NCBI RefSeq assembly: GCF_006345805.1
Contig: NC_042998.1
Span: 195,176,001 to 195,240,000 of the forward strand
Origin: Octopus sinensis
Lineage: Eukaryota
Reading direction: 5' to 3'
DNA length: 64,000 nt
Shown piece by piece: positions 2,871 to 46,038 of the stretch. Under the pieces are notes generated by a model, which was not told the origin of the DNA, searched no databases, and saw only the letters and a program-made list of their open reading frames with translations. Numbering within the stretch: position 1 is the first letter of the stretch; each line of letters begins with the position of its first letter. The position numbers and the translations under genes were made by a program.

Positions 2871-3089
2871 ATACTCTCTCCTCCTCTCTCTCTACCTTTT
2901 CTACTCCAGCTGTAATAACTTCTGGGGCTCTGTGCTGGCTGCTCTCACGTCACACTGCTCCGGCATTTCCAGTTTACTTGGTTCTCTTCTTTCGCTCCTC
3001 ACCCATGCATTCAGTCTCTTCAGACCAAATACTAACAGCTGTACTCAATCCTTTCTTCACAGAATATTGACCTATGAAAATTCTCTCTC

Positions 3090-3537
3090 CGGCTTCCGTG
3101 CCAGAGGCACATAAAAAGGGCACCATTCGAGTGTGATCATTACCAGCGTTGCCTTACTGGCACTTGTGCCAGTGCTAGTAGGGTGCCAAGACCATCATCC
3201 GAGCGTGATCGTTGCTAGAGCAACTAACTGGTTCCGTGCCCGCGGCACATAAAAGGGCACCATTCGAGCACTATCGTTACCAACGTCACCTTACTGGCAC
3301 CTGTGCCGGTGGTATGTGTAAAAAGATTCGAGCGAGGTCATTGCCAGTACTGCCTGACTGGCCCCCATGCCAGTGGCACGTAAAAAGCACCCACTACACT
3401 CTCGGAGTGGTTGGCATTAGGAAGGGCATCCAGCTATAGAAACTGGCTGTCTGGTTCGCCAACCCTCAGTCAAAATCGTCCAACCCATGCTAGCATGGAA
3501 AGCGGACGTTAAACGATGATGATGATGATGATGATGA
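3090..3537 (+). mobile_element. Non-autonomous retroposon with internal subrepeats and (GAT)n tail
   Basis: Three copies of a gtgcc..ggcac(a/g)taaaa..gcacc subrepeat, a ggttggcattaggaagggcatccagc motif, and a terminal (GAT)n. Confidence 0.55.
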
Positions 3538-4727: not shown

Positions 4728-5006
4728 TTAAGGGTTCATGTTACTCTCTCCACAACCGTCACTCACAATTGTAAATCTGCTTCATTCATTATACTTTACT
4801 CTCTCTCTCATCATCTCACCTCAAATCATAACATCTCTCCAATTCTCCTTCAGTTATAGGAGCACCTTTAGTCTTGCTGGTGTCACAATTAAAAAAATAT
4901 ATCCATCAGTAGAAACCATACCAAAACAGAGGTTAGAGCATGATGCAGTGCTCCAGCTTGTCAGATCCTACCAAGCCAATTAACTGATGAATTTATTTAC
5001 CGATAG

Positions 5007-5421
5007 GTGCAGGAGTGGCTGTTTGGTAAGTAGCTGGTTTACCAGCCACATGGTTCCGGGTTCAGTCTCACTGCGTGGCATCTTGGGCAAGTACCTTCTA
5101 CTATAGCCTCGGGCCGACCAAAGCCTTGTGAATGGATTTGGTAGACGGAAACTGAAAGAAGCCCGTCGTATATATGTATGTTTATATAAATATGTGTGTG
5201 TATGTTTGTGTGTCTGTGTTTGTCCCCCTAGCATTGCTTGACAACCGATGCTGGTGTGTTTACGTCGCTGTCACTTAGCGGTTCGGCAAAAGAGACCGAT
5301 AGAATAAGTACTGGGCTTACAAAGAATAAGTCCCGGGGTTGATTTGCTCGACTAAAGGCAGTGCTCCAGCATGGCTGCAGTCAAATGACTGAAACAAGTA
5401 AAAGAGTAAAGGAGTAAAGAG
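5007..5421 (+). mobile_element. SINE family A full-length copy
   Basis: tRNA-like head (ggagtggctg...ggtaag; gggttcagtc), a cttgggcaagt motif, an internal (TA/TG)n, and a 3' end ccagcatggc...cagtcaaatgactgaaac plus (gtaaaaga)n. Confidence 0.9.
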
Positions 5422-5719: not shown

Positions 5720-5928
5720 ATCCTTTCTACTAAAAGCACATGGCCTGAAATTTGGGGGAGGGGACTAGTCAATTACATCGACCCCAGTGTTTCAATGGTA
5801 CTGTATTTACGGACCCAGAAAGGATGAAAGGCAAAGTTGACCTCAGTGGTATTTTAAACTCAGAATGTAAAGACAGATGAAATGTTACTAAGCATTTTGC
5901 CTGGCATGCTAATGATTCTGCCAACTCA
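5720..5928 (-). mobile_element. Old SINE family B copy with variant tail
   Basis: Family B core with many CpG to TpG/CpA decays. Confidence 0.75.
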
Positions 5929-5959
5929 TTACTACTACTACTACAACAACAACAACAAC

Positions 5960-7176: not shown

Positions 7177-7504
7177 CTTCAAACTTGAACTCTTCAAAGC
7201 CACAGTCGAACCAATTCTACTATATGGCTCAGAAACCTGGATGTTATCAAAGAAGCTTGAGAGGCGGTTGGATGGAACCTACACTCGCCTCCTTATGAGA
7301 GCTCAAAATCTCTCGTGGAAGCGTCATCCAACCAAAGTACAAATATATGGGAAACTACCACCTGTGTCATTTCTTGTGAAAGGTAAGAGAGTCCAGTTTG
7401 CTGGACATTGTTGGAGAGCTGAAAAAGAGGTAATTTCTACTCTTCTCCTCTGGAAGCCATCTACTCGCAATACCAGAGGGTGCACACTCTCCTACCCTGA
7501 TGTA
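7177..7504 (+). mobile_element. RTE-group LINE fragment between two SINE A pieces
   Basis: FKATVEPILLYGSETW...LDGTYTRLLMRAQNLSWK...VQFAGHCWR (ORF 7118..7519). SINE A pieces lie at about 7020-7175 and 7505-7818. Confidence 0.85.
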
Positions 7505-7818
7505 AGTGTCTTCTACTAAAGCCTCGGGCCGACCAAAGCCTTGTGAGTGGATTTGGTAGACGGAAACTGAAAGAAGCCCATCGTATATATGTATGTGTGT
7601 GTGTGTGTGTATATGTTTGTGTGTCTGTATTTGTCCCCCCAACATTGCTTGACAACCGATGGTGGTGTGTTTACATCCCCGTAACTTAGTGGTTCGGCAA
7701 AAGAGACCGATAGAATAAATACTAGGCTCACAAAGAATAAGTCCTGGGGTCGATTTGCTCGAATAAAGGCGGTGCTCCAGCATGGCCACAGTCAAATGAC
7801 TGAAACAAGTAAACGAGT
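7505..7818 (+). mobile_element. SINE family A copy (headless)
   Basis: Family A body and 3' tail. Confidence 0.85.
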
Positions 7819-11863: not shown

Positions 11864-11904
<41 letters not shown>

Positions 11905-12401
11905 TGCAAACGTATCAGTATATAATATACACTTCATGCACATATATATATATGCATGAAGTGTATATTATATAGGGATACGTTTGCAGTATATGTGAAG
12001 TGCATGAGTATGGTTTAAGGGAGATTTGGTAGTTATTTCTAGCCGGTAGTGCGATCCCGTAGAGATATCCTCGTTGGTTCGTGTAATTGTGTGTGTGTGT
12101 GTGTGTATACACTTAATTATAGAGATTTGTGTGAGCAGCAAAAAGAACAATAACTTGTAAACATTCCGTGGCAAAAAAAAAAAAACATAAACAATGTTGC
12201 AGATAAATAAATAGATATATATATATGGAGAAACACATAGATATATTGAGACAAAGAGAGATAGGTAGATGTAGGTAGTTATATAAATTAACGTGGTTGA
12301 GTGCGTGCGAAAGAGTAAAAGAGAGAGAAAGTAGGAGCTGAAAAGAGATAAATAGTTCTGCAGAAGATGTAAATAAGAAATAGAACAAATTGGAAACTTA
12401 C

Positions 12402-14103: not shown

Positions 14104-14822
14104 ATTTCGTTTACCGCTACGTTCTGGGTTCAAATTCCGCCGGGGTCGACTTTGCCTTTCATCCTTTCGGGGTCGATAAATTAAGTACCAGTTACGCACC
14201 GGGGTCGATATAATCGACTTAATCCCTTTGTCTGTCCTTGCTTGTCCTCTCTGTGTTTAGCCCCTTGTGGGTAGTAAAGAAATAGGTATTTCGTCTGCCG
14301 GTACGTTCTGAGTTCAAATTCCGCCGAGGTCGACTTTGCCTTTCATCCTTTCGGGGTCGATAAATTAAGTACCAGTGACGCACTGGGGTCGATATAATCG
14401 ACTTAATCCGTTTGTCTGTCCTTGTTTGTCCTCTCTGTGTTTAGCTCTTTGTGGGTAGTAAAGAAATAGGTATTTCGCCCGTCGCTACGTTCAAATTCCG
14501 TCGAGGTCGACTTTGTCTTTCAGCCTTTCGGGGTCGATTAAATAAGTACCAGTTACGCACTGGGTGGGGTCGATATAATCGACTTAATCCGTTTGTCTGT
14601 CCTTGTTTGTCCCTTCTGTGTTTAGCCCCTGGTGGGTAGTAAAGAAATAGATATTTCGTCTGCCGCTACGTTCTGAGTTCAAATGCCACCGAGGTCGACT
14701 TTGCCTTTTATCCTTTCAGGGTCGATAAATTAAAGTACCAGTTGCATACTGGAGTTGACTTAATCGACTGCCCCCCCCCCAAAAAAAAATTTCAGGCCTT
14801 GTGCCTATAGTAGAAAGGATTA
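14104..14822 (+). mobile_element. SINE family B tandem tetramer (headless; last unit has the variant tail)
   Basis: Units restart at about 14104, 14285, 14469 and 14650 through the junction aagaaata|g(g/a)tatttcg. Confidence 0.85.
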
Positions 14823-20357: not shown

Positions 20358-20774
20358 TATTTCTTTATTGCCTACAAGGGGTTAAACATAGAGAGGACAA
20401 ACAAGGACAGACAAACGGATTAAGTCGATTATATCGACCCCAGTGTGTAACTGCTACTTAATTTATCGACCTCGAAAGGATCAAAGGCAAAGTCAACCTC
20501 GGCGGAATTTGAACTCAGAACGTAACGGCAGACGAAATACCTATTTCTTTACTACCCACAAGAGGCTAAACACAGAGAGGACAAACAAGGACAGACAAAC
20601 GGATTAAGTCGATTATATTGACCCCCAGTGCGTAACTGGTACTTAATTTATCGACCCCCGAAAGGATGAAAGGCAAAGTCAACCTCGGCGGAATTTGAAC
20701 CCAGAACGTAGTGGCAGACAAAATACCGCTAAGCATTTCGCCCGGCGTGCTAACGTTTCTGCCAGCTCGCCGCC
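20358..20774 (-). mobile_element. SINE family B dimer with TSD
   Basis: Two units under one head, flanked by tgttttacacatgtct and tgttttacacgtatct. Confidence 0.9.
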
Positions 20775-21195
20775 TTGTTTTACACGTATCTGTTAAAACT
20801 GAATATCAACGCAAGATGTTTTAAAGGTCACTGTTATTCATGGTTGCCGATTTAGAATATTTTAAAGTATGCTCCAGTCTCTTTGATATATGGTTATGAT
20901 TGTGGTATGTTTTTTTAAAGGTTCTCTGTTACACATGACTGCTGGCGTGTGTCTAAACTGGCTGTTGATGGGTTTTTAGTAGAGAAAGATAAATTTATAG
21001 TCTAAAATATAAGCCTCAGGTTGTACCTTTAAGCATAATGCTTGGCATGTGAAAAGTAGGGGAAGACTATGCTCATATTAAAGATAACCTTTACCTTTAC
21101 GAAAATCTTAATTACCCGAGAATTAATTGGAGAAATTACAGAGATGTACTTGCATAGCGATTGACTTGATCTGAGATCGTGTGCTGGAACGAAAA

Positions 21196-21398
21196 CAATT
21201 GCAGCGTGGAAGGTGTTTATAAGCCATTTAAGAAACACACAAAAACCGTTAGATGCAGCACAAAGTTTTGTCAGTGAACAGGTCGCGGTTTCAAAGCGAC
21301 GAAAATATTTTGACAAATTAAATTTAAATGTTGAAGTGAATCTAACGGTTTTTGTGTCTTTCTTAAATGGCTTATAAACACCTTCCACGCTGTAATTG
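21196..21398. mobile_element. Palindromic Penelope-derived mini-element (59-bp inverted arms, hammerhead in loop)
   Basis: Arms 21196-21254 and 21340-21398 are reverse complements with about 2 mismatches, and the loop contains a hammerhead motif. Confidence 0.7.
21267..21317 (+). ncRNA. Minimal type I hammerhead ribozyme motif with G3-C8 core variant
   Basis: TTTGTCA-GTGAACA-G-GTCGC-ggtttcaaa-GCGAC-GAAA-ATAT-TT-TGACAAA: 7-bp stem I, 5-bp stem II, palindromic stem III (AATATT). Confidence 0.7.
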
Positions 21399-21689
21399 GA
21401 GAAAATGACAGCAAAAATAACTTTAAATGTAAAAGAAATAAAATATGCTTCTGGATTGCATTTACGGAAATTACATGTCGACTCGGTGCAGGGAAACGTA
21501 CGTGGCTTATATATTGGATGCAATATTTACAGATGAGTTTCATATGGAATATAAAATTTTGTACCAAAGTCCACTTTGAAAGCGCAAGGTCACAGTGCTA
21601 AGTTTTATTTTTAATTGTTACCCGTATTCTTGACGGAATACCAAAACTGAAAAATTTGCAAATTACCAGATTTTTGTAACAAAAGGAAC

Positions 21690-22496: not shown

Positions 22497-22513
22497 ACAC
22501 ACACACACACACA

Positions 22514-22554
<41 letters not shown>

Positions 22555-22633
22555 CAACAGATAAGATCGAGAGAATCTCAATATAAAAACACTTTGTAGC
22601 GCTCAAATAATTTGAACCTACACACACACACAT

Positions 22634-22684
<51 letters not shown>

Positions 22685-22769
22685 ACACAGTCAACAGATA
22701 AGATCGAGAGATCTCAATATAAAAACACTTTGTAGCGCTCAAATAATTTGAACCTACACACACCACATG

Positions 22770-22836
<67 letters not shown>

Positions 22837-22923
22837 CAACAGATAAGATCGAGAGAATCTCAATATAAAAACACTTTGTAGCGCTCAAATAATTTGAACC
22901 TACACACACACACATGCACACAC

Positions 22924-22964
<41 letters not shown>

Positions 22965-23167
22965 CAACAGATAAGATCGAGAGAATCTCAAATAAAAAAC
23001 ACTTTGTAGCGCTCAAATAATTTGAACCTACCACACACACATGCACACACACGCACACACACACAACACACACACACACACACACAGTCAACAGATAAGA
23101 TCGAGAGAATCTCAATATAAAAACACTTTGTAGCGCTCAAATAATTTGAACCTACACACACACACAT

Positions 23168-23206
<39 letters not shown>

Positions 23207-23443
23207 ACAGTCAACAGATAAGATCGGAGAATCCAATATACAAACACTTTGTAGCGCTCAAATAATTTGACCTACACACACACACATGCACACACACACG
23301 CACACACCCACCCACACACACACACCCACACACACACACACAACACACACACCAGTCAACAGATAAGATCGAGAGAATCTCAATATAAAAACACTTTGTA
23401 GCGCTCAAATAATTTGAACCTACACACACACACATGCACACAC

Positions 23444-23508
<65 letters not shown>

Positions 23509-23604
23509 CAACAGATAAGATCGAGAGAATCTCAATATAAAAACACTTTGTAGCGCTCAAATAATTTGAACCTACACACACACACATGCACACACACACG
23601 CACA

Positions 23605-23643
<39 letters not shown>

Positions 23644-23728
23644 CAACAGATAAGATCGAGAGATCTCAATATAAAAACACTTTGTAGCGCTCACATAATT
23701 GAACCTACACACACACACATGCACACAC

Positions 23729-23777
<49 letters not shown>

Positions 23778-23878
23778 CAACAGATAAGATCGAGAGAATC
23801 TCAATATAAAAACACTTTGTAGCGCTCAAATAATTTGAACCTACACACACACACATGCACACCCACACGCACACCACA

Positions 23879-23913
<35 letters not shown>

Positions 23914-24131
23914 CAACGATAAGATCGAGAGAATCTCAATATAAAAACACTTGTAGCGCTCAAATAATTGAACCTACACACACACACATGCACACACACC
24001 CGCACACACACACACCACCACCACACACACACAACACACACAGTCAACAGATAAGATCGAGAGAATCTCAATATAAAAACACTTTGTAGCGCTCAAATAA
24101 TTTGAACCTACACACACACACATGCACACAC

Positions 24132-24166
<35 letters not shown>

Positions 24167-24290
24167 ACACACACACACAGTCAACAGATAAGATCGAGAG
24201 AATCTCAATATAAAAAACACTTTGTGCGCTCAAATAATTTGAACCTACACACACACACATGCACACACACACGCACACACACACAAACAC

Positions 24291-24330
<40 letters not shown>
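22497..24330. repeat. Minisatellite of 13 conserved ~70-bp blocks separated by variable (CA)n
   Basis: The block cagtcaacagataagatcgagagaatctcaatataaaaacactttgtagcgctcaaataatttgaaccta starts at about 22551, 22688, 22833, 22961, 23085, 23208, 23353, 23505, 23640, 23774, 23910, 24041 and 24178. Confidence 0.95.
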
Positions 24331-24967: not shown

Positions 24968-25146
24968 CAGGCGCAGGCGTGGCTGTGTGGTAAGAAGCTT
25001 ATTCCCCAACTACATGGTTCCAAGTTCAGTCCTTCTGCGTGGCACCTTGGGCAAGTGTCTTCTACTATAGCCTCGGCCTGACCAAAGCCTTGCAACTGGA
25101 TTTGGTAGATGGAAACTGAAAGAAGCCCGTCGTATACATACATACA

Positions 25147-25196
<50 letters not shown>

Positions 25197-25310
25197 TGTA
25201 TGTATGTATACGACGGGCTTCTTTCATTTGGTAGATGGAAACTGAAAGAAGCCCGTCGTATACATACATACATTCATATATATATATATATATATAATAT
25301 ATATATATAT

Positions 25311-38875: not shown

Positions 38876-39902
38876 GGCGGCGAGCTAGCAGAAACGTTAG
38901 CACGTCGAGCGAATTGCTTAGCGGTATTTCGTCTGCCGTTACGTCCTGAGTTCAAATTCTGCCGAGGTCGACTTTGCCTTTCATCCTTTCGGGGTCGATT
39001 AAATAAGTACCAGTTACGCACTGGGGTCGATGTAATCCTTGTTTGTCCCTTCTGTGTTTAGCCCCTTGTGGTAGTAAAGAAATAGGTATTTCGTCTGCCG
39101 TTATTTGTGAGTTCAAATTCCGCCGAGGTCGACTTTACCTTTCATCCTTTCGGGGTCGATTAATAAGTACCAGTTACGCACTGGGGTCGATGTAATCCTT
39201 GTTTGTCCCTTCTGTGTTTAGCCCCTTGTGGGTAGTAAAGAAATAGGTATTCGTCTGCCGTTACGGTCCTGAGTTCAAATTCAAATTCCGCCGCCGAGGT
39301 CGACTTTACCTTTCATCCTTCGGGGTCGATTAAATAAGTACCAGTTACGCACTGGGGTCGATGTAATCCTTGTTTGTCCCTTCTGTGTTTAGCCCCTTGT
39401 GGGTAGTAAAGAAATAGTATTTCGTCTGCCGTTATGTTGTGAGTTCAAATTCCGCCGAGGTCGACTTTACCTTTCATCCTTTCGGGGTCGATTAAATAAG
39501 TACCAGTTACGCACTGGGGTCGATGTAATCCTTGTTTGTCCCTTCTGTGTTTAGCCCCTTGTGGGTAGTAAAGAAATAGGTATTTCGTCTGCCGTTATGT
39601 TGTGAGTTCAAATTCCGCCGAGGTCGACTTTACCTTTCATCCTTTCGGGGTCGATTAAATAAGTACCAGTTACGCACTGGGGTCGATGTAATCCTTGTTT
39701 GTCCCTTCTGTGTTTAGCCCCTTGTGGGTAGTAAAGAAATAGGTATTTCGTCTGCCGTTACGTCCTGAGTTCAAATTCCGCCGAGGTCGACTTTACCTTT
39801 CATCCTTTCGGGGTCGATAAATTAAGTACCAGTTACGCACTGGGGTCGATATAATCGACTTAATCCGTTTGTCTGTCCTTGTTTGTGGGTAATAAAGAAA
39901 TA
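38876..39902 (+). mobile_element. SINE family B hexamer within one 17-bp TSD
   Basis: One head plus units at about 38923, 39085, 39246, 39417, 39579 and 39742. Flanked by aggattaaaaccaaaaa on both sides. Confidence 0.9.
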
Positions 39903-45760: not shown

Positions 45761-45866
45761 ATATATATATATATATAGTTAATCCAAACATGAAAACACA
45801 ACAACGCGAGGACGTGGAACAAATATAGTATTATTGGACGCTCAGCAAGGAAGGGAAGACGGAGGG

Positions 45867-45899
45867 TTTAACGTTTCGAGCGGAGCTCTTCATCAGAAA
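45867..45899 (-). ncRNA. Canonical-core minimal type I hammerhead ribozyme motif (Penelope type)
   Basis: Minus strand TTT-CTGATGA-A-GAGC-tcc-GCTC-GAAA-CG-TT-AAA, with palindromic stem III AACGTT. Confidence 0.85.
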
Positions 45900-46038
45900 T
45901 ATAGGAGAAGGAAAGATCCAGAGAAGGGAAGACAGAGGAAAAAAATCGCCAACGGTACACACGAGGTCACATATATATATATATGTACAAATCGATTAGG
46001 GCTCTTCATCATTATCATATATATATATATATATATAT

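What the first reader, a model, noticed from the sequence alone, without database searches (positions are those of the whole stretch)
21267..21317. Hammerhead with a compensated G3-C8 swap in the catalytic core
Seen: the core reads GUGAACA instead of CUGANGA, while stems I (7 bp) and II (5 bp), GAAA and the palindromic stem III (AAUAUU) are intact. Known: C3 pairs with G8 in the active hammerhead fold, so changing both to G3-C8 preserves the pair, and such variants are uncommon in nature. Inference: a double compensatory change suggests selection for activity rather than decay. Standard CUGANGA searches would miss this family. The predicted cleavage triplet is UUU (after 21310), probably as a dimer.
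Basis: partly seen in the sequence, partly recalled or inferred. Interest (0 to 1): 0.75.

Follow-up and report, generated by a model that had tools for sequence, protein, structure and literature searches.

The report
Penelope retrotransposon hammerhead with swapped core
This is a hammerhead-shaped RNA motif at the start of a Penelope-type jumping gene with thousands of copies in this genome, in which two paired core letters have swapped places compared with its sister family; it likely still cuts itself, though slowly, and cutting is untested.

Summary
The motif is real: stem I 7 bp, G3-U-G-A-A-C8-A9, stem II 5 bp, GAAA, palindrome AAUAUU, U17. The motif is the hammerhead in the 205-nt pseudo-LTR of a Penelope-like retrotransposon family (RT plus C-terminal GIY-YIG). 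The window holds a short inverted insertion with a 12-bp target duplication and one hammerhead only. G3-C8 is the family state: 4,945 of 5,405 pattern matches, C3-G8 in 0. The sister family in the same genome has C3-G8. Across 7 related lineages the 3-8 pair is always Watson-Crick, in three types (C-G, U-A, G-C), so the swap is a true compensated change, likely derived. Against strong catalysis: the sister family has A9C, other relatives vary at other core sites, and only 1 of 100 inserted arms stops at the cut site, so the copied RNA was uncleaved. I found no natural G3-C8 in the papers I could search, but several key papers were not held, and earlier scan notes report it elsewhere. Verdict: new variant of a known kind; cleavage untested.

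The parts
21124..21135 (+). Left copy of a 12-bp target-site duplication
   Evidence: (D2); direct repeats of 7-15 nt flank 43 of 91 two-armed insertions, against a mean of 8.9 (max 17) for shuffled flank pairs
21136..21254 (-). Inverted, 5'-truncated arm of the pseudo-LTR (unit positions about 86-205), carrying the long 3' end (tail); no hammerhead
21251..21398 (+). Sense arm of the pseudo-LTR (unit 1-146, short 3' end), starting at the inferred transcription start; joined to the inverted arm through a 4-nt microhomology at 21251-21254
21267..21273 (+). Hammerhead stem I, 5' strand (pairs with 21311-21317)
21274..21280 (+). Core G3 U4 G5 A6 A7 C8 A9 (swapped 3-8 pair)
   Evidence: family state
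21281..21281 (+). Extra unpaired G between A9 and G10.1
   Evidence: G at this place in 6 of the 7 lineages parsed; an extra base here is described for PLE hammerheads (PMC4209133)
21282..21300 (+). Stem II (5 bp, G10.1-C11.1) with a variable 9-nt loop
21301..21310 (+). G12 A13 A14 A15.1, 6-nt palindrome (21304-21309) that would form stem III only in a dimer, and U17; predicted cut after 21310
21311..21317 (+). Hammerhead stem I, 3' strand
21367..21398 (+). First codons of the element's RT-endonuclease ORF (start codon inside the pseudo-LTR), cut off at the short 3' end
   Evidence: in L158, L164 and L318 the unit runs in frame into the ORF
21393..21404 (+). Right copy of the target-site duplication, overlapping the arm end by microhomology

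Best explanation
The motif is the hammerhead in the pseudo-LTR of a Penelope-like retrotransposon family whose source elements carry G3-C8 in place of C3-G8, and it is likely a slow ribozyme that would cut after U17 only as a dimer or with help from the element's protein. Shown: the 205-nt unit lies about 1 kb behind the RT-GIY-YIG ORF and also runs in frame into the ORF start; full-length copies have two direct pseudo-LTRs 4.36 kb apart; insertions have one long and one short 3' end in inverted arms with target duplications. Inferred: a capped RNA starts about 16 nt before stem I; the element's protein nicks both target strands and starts reverse transcription inside the first 90 nt of the ORF at two sites; copying back to the cap gives thousands of short pseudo-LTR-only insertions such as this one. 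Inferred: the swap arose once on the branch to this family and was kept because the 3-8 pair is needed for the hammerhead fold; cutting is rare before reverse transcription and would serve to trim tandem or read-through RNA rather than to make the insertion template.
For: Element anatomy: (L318: pseudo-LTR 3043-3246, ORF, pseudo-LTR 7404-7549, both G3-C8). 82 of 91 two-armed insertions pair a long with a short 3' end, as described for PLE tails (PMC11167929; PMC8557442). Family state; 149 of 174 arms not chosen by their core are G3-C8, none C3-G8. Sister family B (56% amino-acid identity; grouped with A at SH-aLRT 100, quick tree) has C3 in 97 and G8 in 100 of the first 100 of 2,767 matches. 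3-8 pair Watson-Crick in 7 of 7 parsed lineages: G-C (A), C-G (B, L217, L219, L223), U-A (L218, L220), with stems I and II changing in pairs. Stems I and II form with probability 0.64-1.0 inside the whole pseudo-LTR RNA. Engineered C3G/G8C partly restores cleavage in a PLE hammerhead that cuts only with its protein (PMC11167929); the G:C swap was the only double change that rescued this core in a complete pairwise screen (PMC9901934, passages). Cap signature: G precedes the terminal AG in 43 of 62 short arms, where the element has C (3 of 62).
Against: No cleavage data. Of 100 arms (chosen by a 3' motif) that reach the cut site region, 1 stops at unit 58-62 (upper 95% bound 4.7%; other 5-nt bins 0-4%), and both such arms seen are explained by stem I microhomology. 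Family B has C9 in 96 of 100 listed copies and an imperfect palindrome, yet made 2,767 matches; L218 has C9, L223 G5A, L217 U15.1-A16.1; no hammerhead could be parsed behind L221 and L224, and only a degenerate one in L222. The active dimer is computed 2.2 kcal/mol less stable than two monomers. The extra base is G, while the published consensus has H there (PMC4209133 supplement). Core conservation between subfamilies is not above the rest of the unit (p=0.47). The tree is a quick, midpoint-rooted one and the fork joining A+B to the C3-G8 outgroups is unresolved.
Confidence: 0.6

Rival explanations
1. The hammerhead fold is kept as a structure (binding site for the element's protein, 5' leader or promoter element), and cutting is lost or irrelevant in this clade; the 3-8 pair covaries because the fold, not the chemistry, needs it.
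For: Templates were uncleaved; family B spread with A9C; G5A and U15.1-A16.1 in relatives; hammerhead mutants did not affect insertion in vitro and no RNA reads ended at the cut site for the anole element (PMC11167929); Naiad PLEs spread without hammerheads (PMC8557442).
Against: Family A keeps every other catalytic position (U4, G5, A6, A9, G12, A13, A14, A15.1-U16.1, H17) and a perfect palindrome in its majority sequence. The 3-8 pair is described for the active fold (PMC9901934), so keeping it points to that fold.
Confidence: 0.3
2. The swap is chance: two separate changes in a decayed hammerhead of one source element that happened to be complementary and hitch-hiked.
For: One lineage only has G3-C8; unpaired G3-G8 copies are common (179 of 5,405); core not more conserved than the rest of the unit.
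Against: 3-8 is Watson-Crick in 7 of 7 lineages with three pair types; in A these two are the only core changes; G3-G8 copies are scattered over all subfamilies and in 5 of 6 two-armed cases only one arm has G8, so they are not a source lineage.
Confidence: 0.07
3. It is a stand-alone non-autonomous element (retrozyme, SINE or MITE-like hairpin) that replicates through hammerhead-cut circles.
For: Most copies are 150-350 nt without ORF; only 37 candidates matched the ORF's 5' part; a few head-to-tail arrays of the short unit exist (L174, L178).
Against: The unit is the pseudo-LTR and ORF start of a full element; ends do not map to the cut site; arms are inverted with unequal ends, not tandem monomers.
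Confidence: 0.03

Closest known systems
Minimal type I hammerheads of metazoan Penelope-like elements (Cervera and de la Pena 2014, PMC4209133; read: main text parts 1-2 of 4, supplement file 2 part 2 of 3 plus a term search; file 1 not searchable)
   Same: In the pseudo-LTR; extra base between 9 and 10.1; G10.1-C11.1; palindromic 15-16 region for dimers; U17 common; thousands of dispersed single copies, some in opposite-strand pairs.
   Different: G3-C8 core. The paper reports C3-G8 and U3-A8; no G3 core among the supplement rows seen. Stem I is longer (7 bp against 4-5), the extra base is G (consensus H).
Poseidon element of the anole, PAc (Frangieh et al. 2024, PMC11167929; read: parts 1-2 of 4)
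   Same: Two internal RT start sites in the first part of the ORF giving the tail; both strands nicked and extended; AT-rich targets; unprocessed RNA is the template.
   Different: PAc has natural C3-G8 (C3G/G8C only as an engineered partial rescue); its ORF starts at stem II, here about 55 nt behind the cut site; this element has the CX2-5CxxC linker that Poseidon lacks.
Neptune/Nematis-type EN+ PLEs (Craig et al. 2021, PMC8557442; passages)
   Same: C-terminal GIY-YIG with CX2-5CxxC linker, pseudo-LTRs, inverted 5'-truncated arm, tail at one end, insertion at (TA)n.
   Different: Tail is about 55 nt (30-40 described); clade not assigned here for lack of reference sequences.
Natural hammerhead core variants (Perreault et al. 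2011, PMC3088659; abstract, passages, section parts 2-3 of 7)
   Same: Covariation of the 3-8 pair; a U15.1-A16.1 variant like that in L217.
   Different: Only U3-A8 is named as natural covariation in the text read; supplements not read.

Membership tests
EN+ Penelope-like element (Neptune/Nematis type) | Single ORF with RT and C-terminal GIY-YIG endonuclease | tested here: met
   722-aa frame in L095 and 1,042-aa frame in L127 with DKSG, DVVSLYP, YVDD, YQIKC...YIGET; homologues carry PF00078, PF01541, PF26215; profile hits RTs weakly in PDB. A Pfam scan of the single protein gave 0 families.
EN+ Penelope-like element (Neptune/Nematis type) | CX2-5CxxC linker before the endonuclease | tested here: met
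   residues 593-600 of the L095 frame
EN+ Penelope-like element (Neptune/Nematis type) | Pseudo-LTRs in direct orientation around the ORF, with a hammerhead | tested here: met
   L318 and L319
EN+ Penelope-like element (Neptune/Nematis type) | Inverted 5'-truncated arm and a tail at one end only | tested here: met
   82 of 91 two-armed insertions long+short; window copy
EN+ Penelope-like element (Neptune/Nematis type) | Placement in Neptune versus Nematis by RT tree with named references | not tested
   No named reference sequences were at hand; tree holds unnamed homologues only
Type I minimal (dimer-type) hammerhead ribozyme | Stems I and II around the core, G10.1-C11.1, G12-A13-A14, A15.1-U16.1, H17 | tested here: met
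Type I minimal (dimer-type) hammerhead ribozyme | Literal CUGANGA consensus | tested here: not met
   G3 and C8; C3-G8 in 0 of 5,405; no Rfam hammerhead match at E<=10
Type I minimal (dimer-type) hammerhead ribozyme | Watson-Crick pair between positions 3 and 8 | tested here: met
   G-C here; C-G and U-A in relatives, 7 of 7 lineages
Type I minimal (dimer-type) hammerhead ribozyme | Palindrome able to form stem III in a dimer | tested here: inconclusive
   Perfect 6-nt A/U palindrome, but the active dimer is computed at -25.4 against -27.6 kcal/mol for two monomers
Type I minimal (dimer-type) hammerhead ribozyme | Self-cleavage 3' of N17 | not testable with these tools
   Indirect test negative: no pile-up of insertion 5' ends at the site; only assembled contigs were offered, which cannot show RNA ends
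Non-LTR retrozyme | Head-to-tail monomers of about 170-400 nt without link to an ORF | tested here: not met
   Unit is part of the coding element; copies are mostly single or inverted

The most novel reading that the evidence does not exclude
A high-copy animal retrotransposon lineage crossed the fitness valley of the hammerhead core and fixed G3-C8, a pair so far described only as a laboratory rescue. Its clade samples three Watson-Crick types at 3-8 and also A9C and U15.1-A16.1, while thousands of insertions record that the template RNA was capped and uncut. Penelope hammerheads in this clade would then be selected to reach the catalytic fold but to cut late or rarely, as a protein-gated switch, and a large share of such ribozymes is hidden from CUGANGA searches.
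Probability: 0.35. Interest if true: 0.7.

Novelty: new variant of a known kind. Interest (0 to 1): 0.47.

Why it matters
What Penelope hammerheads do is an open question (PMC8557442). Here two sister families in one genome differ by a clean C3-G8 / G3-C8 swap, and their relatives add U3-A8, which gives natural constructs for asking whether cutting or only the fold is selected. It is also comparative support, from nature, for the 3-8 pair in its rarest orientation, and it shows that consensus searches can miss a family with more than 5,000 copies. The element class, its insertion pattern and the tolerance of the swap in vitro are already known, which limits the surprise.

Tried and rejected
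Rfam: no hammerhead family among the 150 of 227 matches listed for the whole window or the 20 matches on 21200-21400; the miRNA matches reflect the 73-bp inverted arms. Intron reading of the sequence before the unit (it looks like a branch point and acceptor; 805 matches): no spliced junction among 148 short arms, so a transcription start with a copied cap G is preferred; a micro-exon is not excluded. The 2.5-3.2 kb array on C2 proved to be a segmental duplication, not a tandem element. U17 as a co-adaptation to G3: rejected as specific, since C3-G8 relatives L217 and L219 have U17 too and it is common in the published alignment. G3-G8 as a surviving intermediate lineage: not supported. Relatives in viral and prokaryote contigs: none confirmed among 600 and 78 stretches. 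Sequencing runs: no RNA holder listed; contigs of coded organisms A, C and D show the same core string in loose-end consensus rows; one search lists no rows before 21284 and says nothing about the core. MAFFT could not align the distant hammerheads by structure, so they were parsed by position and no covariance model was built. Papers not held: Przybilski and Hammann 2007, Lunse et al. 2017, Nelson and Uhlenbeck 2008, Hammann et al. 2012. Scan notes by sequence and by genome: nothing.

Full report
Observation. Stems I (7 bp) and II (5 bp) are the predicted fold (z -2.33). A relaxed scan of both window strands gave this hit and one weak one. Rfam has no hammerhead among 20 matches at E<=10 on 21200-21400.

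Context. The motif sits at the apex of a 73-bp inverted repeat, and a 12-bp direct repeat flanks the whole. A DNA search of the own genome (G000, 2.7 Gb) found 1,464 candidates, 40 scored. The copies define a 205-nt unit; the window holds unit 1-146 forward and about 86-205 inverted. Among 91 two-armed insertions, 82 pair a long (>=196) with a short (140-156) 3' end, and 43 have 7-15 nt direct repeats at the outer junctions, against a mean of 8.9 for shuffled flanks. This is the tail-and-inversion pattern described for Penelope-like elements (PMC8557442 passages; PMC11167929 parts 1-2).

Parent element. 805 matches carry a shared upstream sequence, which leads over about 1 kb to the end of an ORF with RT and GIY-YIG motifs and a CX2-5CxxC linker. 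Long open frames exist (722-1,042 aa). The unit also runs in frame into the ORF start. L318 has pseudo-LTR, ORF (one frameshift) and pseudo-LTR, both hammerheads G3-C8 and 4,361 nt apart; L319 has one G3-C8 and one G3-G8. The nearest named protein is from Octopus vulgaris and groups with the sister family. A Pfam scan of the single protein gave nothing.

State of the core. A 21-nt pattern with free positions 3 and 8 has 5,405 exact matches (reversed control 0): G3-C8 4,945, C3-G8 0, G3-G8 179, non-G3 169. These count only copies exact at the other 19 bases. In 174 arms not chosen by their core, 149 are G3-C8, 15 G3-G8 (several from duplicated loci; 2 of 81 in the purely 3'-chosen set) and none C3-G8. 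Subfamilies differ at 5 of 9 loop II sites and at 1 of 42 core and stem sites, and that one keeps pairing as a wobble (p=0.0003). The rest of the unit differs at 11 of 154 sites (p=0.47 against the core) (sites picked by eye).

Is it compensated? A sister family B (56% identity; 2,767 matches) has a homologous hammerhead behind its ORF, with C3 in 97 and G8 in 100 of the first 100 listed, but C9 in 96. A metagenome scan gave 11 loci; 8 were long enough to inspect, and 5 gave a parsable motif behind the ORF: L219 C3-G8, L217 C3-G8 with U15.1-A16.1, L218 U3-A8 with C9, L220 U3-A8, L223 C3-G8 with G5A. L222 is degenerate, and none was seen in L221 and L224. So 7 of 7 parsed lineages keep a Watson-Crick 3-8 pair, in three types, and stems I and II change in pairs. 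In a quick 37-row protein tree A and B are sisters (SH-aLRT 100); L217 and L219 are among the nearest rows, across an unresolved fork. By parsimony G3-C8 is derived in A (inference).

Does it cut? For: all other catalytic positions are kept; the stems form inside the whole pseudo-LTR RNA with probability 0.64-1.0; C3G/G8C partly restores cleavage of the anole PLE hammerhead, which cuts only with its protein (PMC11167929); the G:C swap was the only rescuing double change of this core in a pairwise screen (PMC9901934 passages); a review gives a 10^5-fold loss for G8C with partial rescue by C3G (PMC8495972 passage). Against: the active dimer is computed 2.2 kcal/mol above two monomers; relatives tolerate other core changes; and insertions record uncut templates. 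Of 124 arms chosen by a 3' motif, 54 end at unit 1-3 or extend further upstream; of 100 that reach the cut region, 1 stops at 58-62, no more than other bins. A G precedes the terminal AG in 43 of 62 short arms, where the element has C, which I read as a copied cap (the link of an extra 5' G to caps is recalled knowledge). This shows that the copied RNA was not cut; it does not show that no RNA is cut, since cut RNA may not be copied. It agrees with the finding that unprocessed RNA is the template for PAc.

Unexplained. G8 is about six-fold above the C-to-G background (3.5% against 0.55%, 30 of 5,490). It occurs in all subfamilies, and in 5 of 6 two-armed insertions with a G8 only one arm has it, although arms usually agree at subfamily sites. 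It seems to arise per arm, by RT error or a DNA hotspot.

Literature. Natural U3-A8 is reported (PMC3088659; PMC4209133). I found no natural G3-C8 in searches, in the part of the Cervera supplement read, or in passages of PMC7229834, PMC6765202, PMC3884650, PMC3376415 and PMC13282606 and parts 1-2 of bioRxiv 10.64898/2026.07.22.740005. Four key papers were not held, two-letter terms cannot be searched, and unseen supplements of these papers may list such cores. Earlier unchecked scan notes report G3-C8 in phages and in two other Penelope-type tails, so the variant recurs and is not unique.

Verdict. Membership in the EN+ Penelope-like elements is near certain. The G3-C8 core is a real, family-wide, compensated variant. 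Activity is a little more likely than not, and probably weak. New variant of a known kind; interest 0.47.

Noticed in passing
window 45864-45902 (-): A second minimal hammerhead with the ordinary C3-G8 core, from another repeat family; a similar copy lies in L134.
   Followed up: partly
L074, L110, L120: Three similar type I hammerheads with a U3-A8 core and a longer palindromic stem III, so this genome holds C3-G8, U3-A8 and G3-C8 families side by side.
   Followed up: no
L138 about 5890-5935; 2,767 matches in G000: Sister family B has C in place of the conserved A9 in 96 of 100 listed copies and an imperfect palindrome, yet it spread widely; L218 has C9 too.
   Followed up: partly
window 21279 equivalent, genome-wide: C8-to-G change about six-fold above background, mostly in one arm of an insertion; cause unknown.
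   Followed up: partly
window 21250-21253 equivalent: Untemplated G before the 5' end in 43 of 62 short arms, read as a copied cap; the start lies in a stretch that looks like both an initiator and a splice acceptor.
   Followed up: partly
L217 about 4965-5015: Relative with U15.1-A16.1 in place of A15.1-U16.1 inside a perfect palindrome.
   Followed up: no
window 14104-14769, 20358-20727, 38923-39856: Tandem copies of a 163-184 nt dispersed repeat; 22497-24326 is a 134-nt satellite built on (AC)n.
   Followed up: no
window 11900-11993 and 25117-25226: Near-perfect hairpins centred on (TA)n that draw miRNA models below their gathering scores.
   Followed up: no
L174, L178, L180 (C12295, C30): Head-to-tail arrays of the short pseudo-LTR arm, which would place several hammerheads within about 150-200 nt of each other and allow dimers in cis.
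   Followed up: no
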